A stretch of DNA of 64,000 bases, taken from assembly GCF_022846255.1 (NCBI RefSeq), contig NZ_AP025682.1, one strand, 5' to 3'. Shown in pieces: positions 9,001 to 12,000 of the stretch. How positions within the stretch are numbered: position 1 is the stretch's first letter; each line of letters starts with the position of its first letter. This DNA is from Escherichia coli (GTDB taxonomy: Bacteria > Pseudomonadota > Gammaproteobacteria > Enterobacterales > Enterobacteriaceae). Position numbers: made by a program.

Positions 9001-12000
9001 AGGCATCAAAGGCTTAGAGAACAAGGTTTAACTGATGCTGAGATAAAAGATATTGATGCAAAAGAATACCGTAAATCATCTTTGGATGAGAAGTCATCAT
9101 ATATATATCAGAATATACAGTCTTGTTTAGAAATATCAGACATCTATGTTGAGAATCCGGAAGAGGAAAATGTTGTTTGTCGGTACTCAGGATTGGCTAA
9201 TCAATTAATTAAATTCACTTCATTAATGAAGCGTCCCGGTATAATAACTCCATCAAATGTTGAACGTTGCATGCAGATAGCATATACAGCTAAGTTGAAC
9301 TCTGGTTGTATATCCAGGCAGGTAGGCGCTGCAGTATCTGATAGTTCATTTTCAATTAAGTCTATTGGTTGGAATGATGTACCAAGTGGTCAAGTTCCTT
9401 GCTCTTTAAGGGATAGGTTTGATTTGTCTGAGGGGATTGATGATATTGCTTACTCTGAATTCGAAAAGAACGAAAATAGTTTCATTCGAAAAATAGATAG
9501 CACTAAGATTATTTTTTTAGATGTTAAAAATAAAGGAATGAGAGCTCCATTTTGTTTTAAAACAGAATGGAATAATATCCTTGATGATAAATACAAAGAA
9601 GATCTACGGGTCGAGCATAAGTTAAATGATGATGAGTTTGCTATTATTGACAAAATAAAGTCTAACGCTAATCAAGTTTTTACAAGATCACTTCATGCTG
9701 AAGAGAATGCTTTCTTACAAATATCTAAGTATGGTGGCGTTGGTATACAGAATGGTTTTTTGTTCACAACAGCAAGCCCTTGTGAATTATGTTCTAAAAA
9801 AGCGTATCAATTAGGGATCAAACAAATATATTACATAGATCCATACCCTGGTATAGCAATGAGGAATATTTTAAACGCAGGGAGCAATAAACCATTGCTT
9901 AAGCTTTTCAATGGTGCAATAGGTAAGGCATTCCATAATTTTTACACGCCAAGAATGGCTTATAAAGATGAGCTTTCAGCAAGATCTAGGGGGTGAAAAT
10001 ATTGATACAGGTAAAGGCAACGAACCAGAAATGCTCGAGACTATTCTGGCTAAGTCTGCCGGGCGATAAGCACGAGTGCATATGCTGTTCCAAAAGTCTT
10101 CTATTCAATAAATTACGAAGTGCTAACTAACTGACCATGTACAATAAGAACAAATCGCCTTGAATTGCTCTTGATTGAATGGTGAAGAATTATGAGGGTG
10201 ATAGTCCTTACCACCCTCAATTAAAATTAAAGGTATTTACGTGAGAAATTTTTCTTAACCACACTACTAATAAAACTATTTAGTCCATGCCCATCCTGGG
10301 CTAGCGCTTTCATCTTAGAGACCGTTGAAGCACCCAGTTTTGTAGAATCGTAACGTATTTCCATCCATCTTTAAACTGTACTGTGATAACATCGGGAGTA
10401 ATCTCATAAAACACTATTCCCGAATTACCGCCTTAATTAGCATAAGTTGGCATTTTTAATTCTTATTAAATTATTGCAGCAAGTCGCTGCACTCTAGTCA
10501 TATGACCCCATGCTAAACCTAATTGTTGAGCTAAGTCATAATTTCGATTATTTGATGAACGTAAGTTATTTGACAGGCAGAATTAACCATACACAGTAAT
10601 ATCCGTTTCTGGCACATAGCAGTCCTATAGATAGTGGCATACAGTCATAGATGGTCGATTGGAGGAGGTGCAAATTCTCCCATACAAAAAATACGTAAAA
10701 TCAATAACAGCTGGAAATTATTTAATAATCAAATTATCGGAAGTTCACCAGCCAGCCGCAGTATTCTGCCACGACAAGTTGCTGCGGCTTTTTATGTTTA
10801 ACGGATAAACAGCCAGACCAGCAGACACGCCACCGCGGGCACCGCAAAATCCATCAGACTTGCCACATCCCATGCACGAGGATCAAAACCGCCCCACCAC
10901 GGCATGTTAATCCGCTTGCCATGCCCGAACATTTCAATCCAGCGATATTCTGCCTGGGTGTGTTCACGCGCAATGAAGAACGTACAACCGGCTATCGCCC
11001 CGTAAGCCCAGTTTCCGGTAAAAAGACCAATCAGTAGCTGCGCAGCCACAGCACAAAGTGCATGAAGGAAAGGTGTTATATCCATTACTCCTCCTTTATC
11101 AGATATCACTTCGGGAAGTTGATAACAACTTTAATTCTGACTCAAGTTCATCAACTCTTTCAGTCAGTTTCTGGATATGGTGAATCAGTGGAACAACCAG
11201 ACGTTCGTACATTACACCTTCGACAACAAGGCCATTGCTGGAAATAGCTTCAGGAGCATCATCTTCGTTAGCTGGTCGCCAGTGTACAAACTGAGGAGCA
11301 ATTTCTCCCACTTCCTCGGCAATCAATCCGTAGAATCCCCAGTCACTCCTGTCATTTTCGCATTGCGACCTGTACCACACAGGGCGCATCCTGAAAATGA
11401 GATCGGCGTGCTCTGAATCTATTGTCTCTACTGAATGTTTATAGCGAATAGACGATGTTGACCGCAGTACAGACGAAATTGCAGGGTCAGGATTAAGATA
11501 AAGATTTGCCGCCGCTGTAGTCGTGCCCAATTCCCATAAATAAAACGCTTCACGGCCAGTCAGCGGGTAAAAATCTCCACCATAACGACCGCTTTCCAGA
11601 TCGTTCACTTCCAGTTTGTTTTTCAGCTTATTATCAACTTCAGTTTTTGTGTATCTGGTGCTGATATCCTGCTTTGCACTGGTCATATCAGTCTGAAGCG
11701 TTGATACTTTTCCGTTAATTGAGGAAATATCTTCCTTAGTTTTACTGACATCTCCCTTTAGCGTGGTGATATCTCCTGGAATTACTGTCGATGTAGCCAT
11801 TTGTCTCCCTCACATCCAGCCACGAAGTTGATGCTCAACAACAACCGCATATTTATCGAATATTGACGATTTTTTTGCATCATTAATGATGCGCACGTTT
11901 ACAAAATATCCGTCTTCCTTAACACATACCGGTTCGCCATCTTCAGTCAGTTCTCCGGTTTCTTTGTACACGTTACCTATCACGTCAATAAGAATATTAT

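What the first reader, a model, noticed from the sequence alone, without database searches (positions are those of the whole stretch)
9997..10797. About 0.8 kb AT-rich non-coding spacer between the deaminase gene and the tail fibre module
No ORF of 60 aa or more on either strand. It contains a stem-loop GAGGGTG...CACCCTC near 10190 and a GC hairpin followed by a T-run near 10760..10795. Could contain an sRNA, a remnant recombination site, or decayed genes.
Basis: seen in the sequence. Interest (0 to 1): 0.2.

Follow-up and report, generated by a model that had tools for sequence, protein, structure and literature searches.

The report
Recombination scar ending in conserved terminator
The 0.8 kb "spacer" is a patchwork of dead gene pieces left when a prophage swapped its anti-phage cargo, and it ends in a roughly 100-base non-coding hairpin element that phage lambda and about a fifth of complete E. 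coli genomes also carry at the edge of the same cargo slot.

Summary

The spacer is not featureless. It is a mosaic of two ancestries.

- **Imported block, 10012-10619.** It is 93% identical to a block in Qin-type E. coli prophages. It holds the last 19 codons of an OLD-family nuclease gene, a terminator hairpin (10193-10219, minus strand), and a convergent 75-aa gene now dead from a nonsense codon and a 1-bp deletion.
- **Junction, 10596-10619.** Both parents are similar here, and the block joins native lambda-type sequence.
- **Native end, 10695-10794.** This is a roughly 100-nt non-coding element made of a near-invariant 60 nt, a hairpin with compensatory changes, and (here) a U-run. It occurs in 1178 of 5426 complete E. 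coli genomes, in lambda (about 24.16-24.26 kb) and in over 120 viral contigs. It usually sits against the stop codon of the last tail-side gene. Variable cargo lies on its other side: Avs2, Septu-like pairs, OLD-like nucleases, integrases, DinI, and here a dCTP deaminase.

It most likely terminates deaminase/cargo transcripts and serves as a homology anchor for cargo exchange. It matches no Rfam family. The scar is ordinary; the element is modestly interesting.

The parts
8218..9996 (+). Context: anti-phage dCTP deaminase gene (592 aa; kinase-like N-terminus plus cytidine deaminase). Its stop codon is 15 nt before the imported block.
   Evidence: PADLOC dCTPase 5.3e-127. NCBIfam NF041025 anti-phage dCTP deaminase 370.7 bits, profile matched to its last position 437/437 but below the curated cut-off of 400. 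Pfam dCMP_cyt_deam_1 2.5e-12. Present in only 5 of 5426 complete E. coli genomes.
10012..10069 (+). 3' remnant (last 19 codons plus stop) of an OLD-family ATP-dependent nuclease gene.
   Evidence: The window reads ...GKGNEPEMLETILAKSAGR* against ...AKGNVPEMLETILAKSAGR* at the end of the intact 626-aa gene in E. coli SCU-113. That gene carries AAA_15 7e-43 and OLD-like_TOPRIM 2.6e-15 and matches PADLOC Old 1.3e-55.
10193..10219 (-). Terminator-type hairpin of the convergent 75-aa gene, 8 nt after its stop codon.
   Evidence: 11-pair stem found by the scan on the minus strand. -16.8 kcal/mol, z = -3.5 on minus; -12.7, z = -1.45 on plus. Conserved in the Qin-type block.
10227..10453 (-). Pseudogene of a 75-aa protein of unknown function (WP_001557863.1 family).
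   Evidence: The translation reads MPTYAN*GGNSGIVFYEITPDVITVQFKDGWKYV, then the frame is lost. The intact homologue is MPAYANKGGNSGIVFYEITPDAITVQFKDGWKYVYDSTKPG.... Lesions are AAA to TAA at codon 7 and a 1-bp deletion at alignment column 403. Both are shared with strain SF-468. phrog_17428 8.3e-20; no Pfam, NCBIfam or PADLOC match.
10454..10595 (.). Former upstream (promoter/leader) region of the 75-aa gene, carried in with the Qin-type block.
   Evidence: Part of the 608-bp, 92.9%-identical block. Promoter-like site on the minus strand at 10576-10547 (CTGTCA-18-AATAAT); this is only a consensus match, and the site count is not above chance.
10596..10619 (.). Crossover zone. These 24 bp align both to the Qin-type block and to the lambda-type backbone.
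   Evidence: Homology to SCU-113 ends at 10619. Homology to lambda, phage IdasGreatGrand and PhiR11_1 begins at 10596-10602. All three sequences share GTAATRTCCG..GGCACA.AG.
10620..10694 (+). Lambda-type sequence preceding the conserved element. This upstream extension is shared by only one class of homologous loci.
   Evidence: 84% identical to lambda 24190-24354 (complement), between ea31 and ea47. 90.7% identical to phage IdasGreatGrand, continuing into the tail module. Other loci have unrelated sequence here.
10695..10753 (+). 5' part of the conserved lambdoid boundary element (consensus GTAAAATCGGTAACGGCTGGAAATCATTCAATACTCGCACTATCGRAAGTTCACCAGCCAGCC). The window copy carries 6 A/T-ward substitutions in its centre.
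   Evidence: Conservation rises sharply at GTAAAATC. The central 27 nt are identical in 16 of 20 unique sequences collected without anchoring on them. The covariance model hits 10685-10803 at 101.8 bits, though the window was in the training set. No conserved ORF.
10754..10794 (+). Conserved hairpin (arms 10754-10763 and 10780-10789) plus U-run.
   Evidence: -17.4 kcal/mol. In 85 distinct homologues 94% of cells are paired, 7 of 12 pairs changed on both sides, and 51 compensatory cells against 7.5 expected with 0 of 500 shuffles reaching that. G.U pairs far outnumber A.C pairs on the plus strand. 6 T in the 8 nt after the stem.
10798..11109 (-). Context: last gene on the tail-fibre (late) strand, a 95-103-aa membrane-like protein. 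Its stop codon lies 8 nt from the hairpin.
   Evidence: ORF. phrog_1443 4.9e-57. Annotated as a 95-aa hypothetical protein in SF-468, IdasGreatGrand and PhiR11_1.

Best explanation
The spacer is a recombination scar in the accessory-gene slot at the tail-fibre end of a lambda-like prophage, the equivalent of lambda's b region. It is not a designed regulatory region.

A dCTP-deaminase defence gene now sits where lambda has ea59/ea31. The 608 bp behind it came from a different defence slot in Qin-type prophages. That block holds the last 19 codons of an OLD-family nuclease gene, the terminator hairpin of a convergent 75-aa gene, that gene itself (now killed by a nonsense codon and a frameshift), and its former promoter region. 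The imported block is joined to the native lambda-type backbone inside a 24-bp stretch where both parents are similar.

The native part ends in a roughly 100-nt non-coding element that lambdoid phages of E. coli share: about 60 nt of nearly fixed sequence, then a hairpin kept by compensatory changes.

In this window the hairpin is followed by a U-run, so it most likely acts as the intrinsic terminator of plus-strand transcripts. The deaminase mRNA would therefore carry about 0.8 kb of junk 3' UTR and stop 8 nt before the convergent end of the tail-fibre operon. Because the element is conserved between otherwise unrelated flanks, it also serves as a patch of homology through which phages exchange the cargo next to it.

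Shown: the ancestry of each piece, the lesions, the junction, the conservation and covariation of the hairpin, and the variable cargo. Inferred: termination, the extent of the deaminase transcript, the order of events, and the role as a recombination anchor.

The confidence of 0.75 is a blend: about 0.9 for the mosaic and scar reading, about 0.6 for termination at the hairpin.
For: - **Ancestry.** 10012-10619 is 92.9% identical to Qin-type prophage sequence in about 70 E. coli genomes. There it follows an intact or truncated OLD-family nuclease gene and contains an intact 75-aa gene.
- **Lesions.** Stop at codon 7 plus a 1-bp deletion. The nuclease remnant is confirmed by translation.
- **Backbone.** 10596 onward matches lambda between ea31 and ea47, and matches phages IdasGreatGrand and PhiR11_1 through into the tail module.
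- **Element.** It occurs in 1178 of 5426 complete E. coli genomes and in more than 120 viral contigs. Conservation has sharp edges.
- **Hairpin.** Covariation is strong: 7 of 12 pairs changed on both sides, 51 compensatory cells against 7.5 expected, 0 of 500 shuffles. Slid controls give 22-60% of cells paired against 94.7% for the whole 16-pair structure. The excess of G.U over A.C points to plus-strand RNA.
- **U-run.** 6 of 8 T follow the stem in the window. 36 of 85 variants have at least 5 of 8 T on the plus strand, and none do on the minus strand.
- **Right flank.** In the homologous loci this is usually the stop codon of the last late-strand gene: Pin invertase 25 times, Tfa 15 times, also tail fibre and the 95-aa protein.
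- **Left flank.** Variable cargo: Avs2 (E = 0), PtuB 2e-32, lambda Ea59/Ea31 (PtuA 9e-185, PDC-M01B 6e-113), OLD-like nuclease, PDC-S15, Mrr_cat, integrases, DinI-like. In the window it is dCTPase 5e-127.
Against: - No transcript data exist for this locus, so termination is inferred from sequence alone.
- The window hairpin alone is not thermodynamically exceptional (z = -0.86). Its 16-nt loop is long for an intrinsic terminator, and the scan did not call it.
- In lambda and 58% of variants no U-run follows the hairpin. Termination therefore cannot be the function that keeps the element conserved everywhere.
- A terminator does not explain why the 60 nt upstream are nearly invariant.
- Cargo to the left lies in either orientation, so the element is not always a 3' UTR.
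- The only experimental signal found, the Hfq-CRAC peak EcOnc47 in Sakai Sp15, lies on the opposite strand after an estimated coordinate correction.
- The exact central 20-mer occurs only in Escherichia among 100,044 species representatives. High identity may reflect recent spread rather than selection.
Confidence: 0.75

Rival explanations
1. The conserved 100-nt element encodes a trans-acting small RNA on the plus strand. It would be either a 3'-UTR-derived fragment or a transcript from its own promoter. The invariant 60 nt would be its target-pairing body, and the hairpin with U-tail its Hfq/ProQ-type 3' end.
For: The architecture, a single-stranded conserved body followed by a covarying hairpin and often a U-tail, is that of many enterobacterial sRNAs. 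The body is more conserved than the stem. G.U pairs favour plus-strand RNA. Conservation begins at a TAAAAT hexamer. In DinI-type loci the element starts 8 nt after a stop codon, like a 3'-UTR sRNA. Prophage regions of E. coli O157 are dense in Hfq-bound sRNAs (PMC4104026).
Against: No Rfam family matches. The sequence differs from AgvB/AsxR. Read by eye, the -35 region is not conserved because the upstream flanks are unrelated, and the promoter scan found nothing there in the window. 58% of variants, lambda included, lack a U-tail. No northern blot or RNA-seq evidence was found. The reported Hfq peak is on the other strand.
Confidence: 0.15
2. The functional RNA is on the late-gene (window minus) strand. 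The hairpin would be the 3'-end stabiliser or Hfq-binding module of the tail-fibre operon mRNA, or of an sRNA such as EcOnc47, and the conserved 60 nt would be its trailing sequence.
For: The hairpin lies 11 nt or less from the stop codon of whichever gene ends the late strand, across several unrelated genes. Tree et al. 2014 Table S2 lists an orphan Hfq-binding site, EcOnc47, in Sakai Sp15 on the minus (late-gene) strand at 2,896,476-2,896,522. With an estimated old-to-new coordinate shift of +128 to +142, it overlaps the hairpin and adjacent A-rich tract of the Sp15 copy, which BLAST places at 2,896,544-2,896,638 in NC_002695.2.
Against: G.U pairs on the plus strand become A.C mismatches on the minus strand, and they greatly outnumber the reverse case. 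No variant has a U-run after the hairpin on the minus strand. The coordinate shift was measured at 1.94 Mb, not at 2.9 Mb, so the overlap is approximate. EcOnc47 was not validated by northern blot.
Confidence: 0.12
3. The element has no RNA function. It would be only a DNA boundary sequence, that is, a patch of homology spread recently among E. coli lambdoid prophages by recombination and looking conserved because it is young.
For: Both flanks are mosaic and break exactly at its edges. Some loci have two direct copies bracketing cargo. The element itself is mosaic: two hairpin types are linked to different right flanks. The exact 20-mer is restricted to Escherichia. Short conserved boundary sequences are a recognised feature of lambdoid mosaicism (Juhala et al. 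2000, cited in PMC4104026; from my own knowledge).
Against: Compensatory double changes in 7 of 12 hairpin pairs and the strand-biased G.U excess are not expected for neutral DNA. The stem has diverged while the upstream 27 nt stay fixed in the same sequences. That indicates unequal constraint, not uniform youth.
Confidence: 0.15
4. The spacer encodes small proteins: the 55-aa or 49-aa plus-strand ORFs at 10634-10808, corresponding to the 63-aa ORF annotated in some lambda records.
For: An ORF in the same frame is annotated with a ribosome-binding site in the Lambda imm21 record. GGAGG lies at 10661-10665.
Against: In many homologous loci the sequence upstream of the element is unrelated, or is the end of another gene with an in-frame stop and no start codon, so the ORF is not conserved. 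The C-terminal halves differ completely between window and lambda. No PHROG family matches the lambda ORF. The GGAGG lies only 2 nt from the GTG.
Confidence: 0.03

Closest known systems
Lambda b region (ea47-ea31-ea59) as a dispensable accessory or 'moron' slot between tail fibres and att/int
   Same: Same position and orientation. The window's 10596-10761 is homologous to lambda 24190-24354, between ea31 and ea47. Cargo is transcribed towards the tail-fibre operon.
   Different: Here ea59/ea31 are replaced by a dCTP deaminase plus imported debris. ea47 is absent, so the element directly faces the last late gene.
Intrinsic (Rho-independent) terminators at convergent gene ends
   Same: A GC-rich stem followed by a U-run, placed between convergent transcription units.
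   Different: The loop is long (16 nt). The hairpin is conserved with a fixed 60-nt upstream sequence across unrelated flanks. Many homologues, lambda included, lack the U-run.
Conserved boundary or linker sequences of lambdoid phage mosaics (Juhala et al. 2000; from my own knowledge, cited in PMC4104026)
   Same: A short conserved sequence sits between modules that differ from phage to phage, and breakpoints cluster at its edges.
   Different: It is about 100 nt long and holds a hairpin under structural selection. It marks a slot rich in defence systems.
EcOnc47, an orphan Hfq-binding site in prophage Sp15 of E. coli O157 Sakai (Tree et al. 2014, PMC4104026 Table S2)
   Same: After coordinate correction it falls on or beside the Sp15 copy of the element, next to the dinI-like gene at the tail-fibre end.
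   Different: It is reported on the opposite strand. It was not validated by northern blot. The overlap depends on an estimated coordinate shift of +128 to +142.
Defence hotspots of P2-like phages and P4-like satellites (Rousset et al. 2022, cited in PMC11364771)
   Same: A fixed slot in a temperate phage genome carries different anti-phage systems in different relatives.
   Different: The phage family and slot differ. Here one border of the slot is a conserved non-coding element, whereas in those phages, as I recall, conserved genes form the borders. I did not find this slot or element described in the papers I searched.

Membership tests
Intrinsic (Rho-independent) terminator | Stable GC-rich stem-loop | tested here: met
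   10-pair stem 10754-10763/10780-10789, -17.4 kcal/mol. Conserved with covariation. The loop of 16 nt is longer than usual, and the scan did not call it.
Intrinsic (Rho-independent) terminator | U-rich tract immediately 3' of the stem | tested here: met
   6 T in the 8 nt after the stem in the window. Only 36 of 85 homologues reach 5 of 8. Lambda has none.
Intrinsic (Rho-independent) terminator | Transcripts end there | not testable with these tools
   No transcript data available.
Pseudogene of the WP_001557863.1 (75-aa) family | Homology over the full length to intact genes | tested here: met
   Lies inside the 608-bp block that is 92.9% identical. The intact gene is present in about 70 genomes.
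Pseudogene of the WP_001557863.1 (75-aa) family | Disabling lesions | tested here: met
   TAA at codon 7 and a 1-bp deletion after codon 34.
OLD-family nuclease gene | ATPase and TOPRIM domains | tested here: not met
   Only the last 19 codons remain. The domains are present in the intact SCU-113 gene. This is a remnant, not a gene.
Any described RNA family (Rfam 15) | Covariance-model match | tested here: not met
   Only chance-level hits: snoZ194 at E = 2.2 in the window and CssrB at E = 0.044, 28 bits against a gathering score of 76, on the opposite strand of one homologue.
Hfq-dependent sRNA | Own promoter or defined 5' end | tested here: inconclusive
   Conservation starts at a TAAAAT hexamer. 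By eye, the -35 region is not conserved because the upstream flanks are unrelated, and the scan found nothing there.
Hfq-dependent sRNA | Hfq binding | tested here: inconclusive
   EcOnc47 CRAC peak at or near the Sp15 copy, but on the other strand and with estimated coordinates.
Lambda sib/tI retroregulator | Lies just beyond attP downstream of int | tested here: not met
   In lambda the element lies beyond both ea59 and ea31, about 3.5 kb past the end of int and next to ea47. Only one copy of the element was found in the lambda segment held.
DNA-invertase crossover (pix/gix/hix) or enhancer site | Inverted pair of about 26-bp crossover sites flanking an invertible segment, with the enhancer inside the 5' part of the invertase gene (from my own knowledge) | tested here: not met
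   The element lies after the 3' end of pin in 25 loci and is single-copy there. It is also present in loci without an invertase, the window among them.

The most novel reading that the evidence does not exclude
The roughly 100-nt element (window 10695-10794; lambda about 24,160-24,255) would be an undescribed, widespread phage regulatory RNA. It would sit at the collision point of the late operon and the accessory or defence slot in lambdoid phages, lambda included. Its invariant 60 nt would be a functional body, for example a pairing or protein-binding region that tunes cargo or late-gene expression. The six substitutions in the window's copy would then be a retargeted or inactivated allele.
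Probability: 0.2. Interest if true: 0.6.

Novelty: new member of a known kind. Interest (0 to 1): 0.35.

Why it matters
For this window, the result removes a puzzle. The 0.8 kb is debris from cargo exchange, and it documents how a dCTP-deaminase defence gene came to sit at the tail-fibre end of a lambda-like prophage, dragging part of another defence locus with it.

More generally, the terminal 100 nt give a simple sequence marker for one border of a defence or accessory slot. That slot is present in roughly a fifth of complete E. coli genomes and in lambda itself. In the loci examined here its neighbours include Avs2, Septu-type pairs, OLD-like nucleases and candidate systems, so it could be used to mine new cargo.

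If the element proves to be a functional RNA, it would be a new regulatory feature in the best-studied phage, and it can be tested directly in lambda.

Tried and rejected
- **Known RNA families.** Rfam scans of the window region and of six homologous loci gave nothing above chance.
- **KTSC domain.** My recollection that the 75-aa protein is a KTSC-domain protein was not supported. No Pfam hit appeared even at E = 10, and none in NCBIfam or PADLOC. Only PHROG families of unknown or structural annotation matched.
- **Upstream flank of the deaminase.** It is not shared with the Qin-type OLD locus; only the downstream 608 bp are.
- **Other genomic contexts for the deaminase.** None exist in E. 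coli. All 5 genomes share this arrangement.
- **K-12 e14.** It lacks the element.
- **AgvB/AsxR and EcOnc22-24.** The sequences differ, and EcOnc22 lies between J and the tail-assembly gene.
- **Full-text searches.** Searches for element sequence strings, ea31/ea47, dinI with sRNA, and lambdoid defence hotspots found no description of the element.
- **Lambda ribosome-profiling paper.** It is not held in the library.
- **Long-range helix.** A 4-bp GCTG/CAGC helix is predicted but has only one compensatory case, so I do not rely on it.
- **Decayed dinI 3' end.** The lambda-type upstream extension resembles a dinI 3' end only in a short TGGGAG block. I judged this by eye and did not pursue it.
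Full report
**Observation.** The region 9997-10797 lies between the stop codon of a 592-aa ORF (8218-9996, +) and the stop codon of a 95-103-aa ORF on the opposite strand (10798-11109, -). 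It has no ORF of 60 aa or more; the longest are 55 and 49 aa at its right edge. GC is 0.34-0.42.

- Hairpin 1 (10193-10219) folds much better on the minus strand: -16.8 kcal/mol, z = -3.5, against -12.7, z = -1.45 on the plus strand.
- Hairpin 2 (10754-10763 paired with 10780-10789) is followed by TTTTTATG. Alone it is not exceptional (z = -0.86), and the scan missed it because of its long loop.

**Neighbours.** The upstream ORF is an anti-phage dCTP deaminase. It matches PADLOC dCTPase at 5e-127 and NCBIfam NF041025 at 370.7 bits, matched to the end of the profile though just under the curated cut-off. The genes to the right are a lambda-type side tail-fibre module. The whole arrangement occurs in only 5 of 5426 complete E. 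coli genomes, at 99.1-99.3% identity.

**Left two-thirds: an imported, decayed block.** Window 10012-10619 is 92-93% identical to a block found in about 70 E. coli genomes, in a Qin-type prophage between hokD and a DUF977 gene. In strain SCU-113 the block begins inside the 3' end of an intact 626-aa OLD-family nuclease gene (AAA_15, OLD-like TOPRIM; PADLOC Old 1e-55). It also contains a convergent, intact 75-aa gene.

- In the window only the last 19 codons of the nuclease gene survive (10012-10069...EPEMLETILAKSAGR*). They start 15 nt after the deaminase stop.
- In most other genomes the same nuclease gene is itself cut down to its last 75 codons.
- The 75-aa gene (10453-10227, minus strand) is dead in the window. 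AAA has become TAA at codon 7, and a 1-bp deletion shifts the frame after codon 34. SF-468 shares both lesions.
- Hairpin 1 lies 8 nt after that gene's stop and is its terminator-type hairpin.
- The 75-aa protein has no Pfam, NCBIfam or PADLOC match. It resembles a segment of larger phage proteins (phrog_17428, 8e-20).
- The sequence upstream of the deaminase is not shared with the Qin-type locus.

**Junction.** Homology to the Qin-type block ends at 10619. Homology to lambda (24190-24354, complement, between ea31 and ea47) and to phages IdasGreatGrand and PhiR11_1 starts at 10596-10602. In the 24-bp overlap all three lineages are similar (GTAATRTCCG..GGCACA.AG). This is the pattern expected for a crossover in a short patch of homology. 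From 10596 the window follows IdasGreatGrand at 90.7% into the tail module. In that phage the same position upstream is occupied by ea59/ea31.

**Right end: a conserved element.** An exact 19-mer from the hairpin's 5' flank recovered 33 viral contigs. Most of them share a core of about 100 nt while having unrelated sequence on both sides; two are chance matches without the element. A second anchor recovered more than 120 contigs. A 103-nt consensus finds 1292 places in 1178 of 5426 complete E. coli genomes, almost always unannotated. Conservation rises abruptly at GTAAAATC and falls just after the hairpin. In the window the element spans 10695-10794, and a covariance model scores 10685-10803 at 101.8 bits (the window was in the training set).

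- **The hairpin is real.** Across 85 distinct sequences 94% of its cells pair. Seven of 12 pairs have changes on both sides. There are 51 compensatory cells in the whole 16-pair structure against 7.5 expected, with 0 of 500 shuffles reaching that. Sliding the partner columns collapses pairing from 94.7% for the whole structure to 22-60%.
- **The RNA is probably plus-strand.** Intermediates are overwhelmingly G.U on the plus strand rather than A.C. This points to an RNA read in the direction of the cargo genes.
- **The upstream 60 nt are even more constant.** The central 27 nt are identical in 16 of 20 unique sequences collected without anchoring on them.
- **No ORF is conserved over the element.** In many loci it starts 8 nt after the stop of a DinI-like gene, or follows unrelated sequence. 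The 63-aa ORF annotated in some lambda records is therefore unlikely to be real.
- **It is undescribed as far as I could check.** No Rfam family matches.

**What surrounds the element.** On the right, the hairpin usually abuts the stop codon of whichever gene ends the late strand. This is a Pin-type invertase in 25 loci (gap -1), Tfa in 15 (gap 11), a tail fibre, or the 95-aa protein as here. In some loci, lambda included (ea47), more cargo follows instead.

On the left the content is highly variable and lies in either orientation. It includes integrases, DinI-like genes, Avs2 (E = 0), Septu PtuB (2e-32), an OLD-like nuclease next to pinE, PDC-S15, an Mrr-type endonuclease, a trypsin-like protease and a DUF4145 protein. 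Lambda's own ea59/ea31 match PtuA (9e-185) and PDC-M01A/B. The slot is therefore an accessory and defence hotspot, and the element is one of its borders. A few loci carry two direct copies bracketing cargo.

**How it most likely works here.** On the plus strand the window's hairpin is followed by 6 T in 8 nt. Of the 85 variants, 36 have at least 5 of 8 T on the plus strand and none do on the minus strand. Hairpin 1 is weak on the plus strand and lacks a U-run. The likeliest picture is that deaminase transcripts run through about 0.8 kb of debris and stop at 10790-10795, just short of the convergent tail-fibre operon. This step is inferred, not shown.

Lambda and most variants lack the U-run, and the upstream 60 nt are fixed. 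Termination alone therefore does not explain why the element persists. Its use as a homology patch for cargo exchange fits the mosaic flanks and the duplicated copies, but that too is inferred.

**A lead that cuts the other way.** Prophage Sp15 of E. coli O157 Sakai carries the element at 2,896,544-2,896,638 (+) in NC_002695.2, directly after a dinI-like gene. Table S2 of Tree et al. 2014 (PMC4104026) lists an orphan Hfq-binding site, EcOnc47, at 2,896,476-2,896,522 on the minus strand in older coordinates. Using AgvB1 as a landmark, the old-to-new shift is about +142 at 1.94 Mb. From memory, not from a tool, the older assembly is 5,498,450 bp against 5,498,578 bp now, a difference of +128. 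Either value puts the peak on the hairpin's 3' half and the adjacent A/T-rich tract, but on the late-gene strand. The shift was not measured at 2.9 Mb, and EcOnc47 was not validated by northern blot. I treat this as a rival reading, not as support.

**Caveats on conservation.** The exact central 20-mer occurs only in Escherichia among 100,044 species representatives, apart from two short MAG contigs that are probably mis-binned. Recent spread by recombination may therefore inflate apparent conservation. The window's copy, shared only with SF-468 (L001) and viral contig L008, has six A/T-ward substitutions in the otherwise fixed centre. That fits relaxed constraint in this lineage, or a different specificity if the sequence is functional.

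**Verdict.** The scar itself is ordinary lambdoid mosaicism. The terminal element is a new, widespread member of a known kind, a conserved boundary or terminator hairpin. It has an unexplained invariant body and deserves a transcript-level test in lambda.

Noticed in passing
L003:1382-3846 (lambda ea59, ea31): Lambda Ea59 matches PADLOC PtuA (8.8e-185) and PDC-M01A (8e-202), and Ea31 matches PDC-M01B (5.8e-113). Lambda's own genes in this slot look like a Septu-type defence pair.
   Followed up: partly
L155:3000-3080 (-) and other E. coli genomes: RefSeq annotation places partial 'capsid protein' or 'nucleocapsid protein' pseudogenes on the minus strand across the conserved non-coding element. 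These are probably spurious protein-database hits.
   Followed up: no
window 10798-11109 (-): The 95-103-aa membrane-like protein is the last gene on the tail-fibre strand. It matches phrog_1443 (4.9e-57) with no Pfam or NCBIfam family. The same gene ends the late strand in phages IdasGreatGrand and PhiR11_1. Its function is unknown.
   Followed up: partly
L004:4810-5058, L005:4810-5058: In most E. coli genomes with the Qin-type block, the 'hypothetical protein' upstream is just the last 75 codons of the OLD nuclease (99% identical). The same defence gene has thus been truncated to different lengths in different lineages.
   Followed up: yes
L096 (1709-1829 and 3481-3601), L126 (3582-3702 and 6252-6372), L081, L063: Some viral contigs carry two direct copies of the element 1.8-4 kb apart with cargo genes between them. 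This would be expected from unequal exchange using the element as homology.
   Followed up: partly
L164, L166: Two short MAG contigs labelled Bacillota and Lachnospiraceae (2.5 and 3.2 kb) contain the exact E. coli 20-mer of the element. They are likely mis-binned enterobacterial prophage fragments.
   Followed up: no
window 12091-14472 (-): The 793-aa side tail-fibre ORF has long Ala/Ser/Thr-rich tandem repeats. In strain SF-468 the equivalent region is annotated as several separate CDS and a pseudogene, which suggests repeat-driven variation or assembly differences.
   Followed up: no
window about 1-8200 (by homology to L001:1-7200): The region left of the deaminase in the near-identical SF-468 locus holds a recombinase-family (invertase-like) gene, a DUF4365 protein, a truncated tyrosine integrase and hypothetical proteins. 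None of the window ORFs tested there matched PADLOC beyond one marginal hit at E = 0.0094. More uncharacterised cargo may be present.
   Followed up: partly
L003:5841-6039 (-) (lambda tfa): The Rfam family IS009 matches inside lambda's tfa gene at 224 bits. This is incidental to the question here.
   Followed up: no
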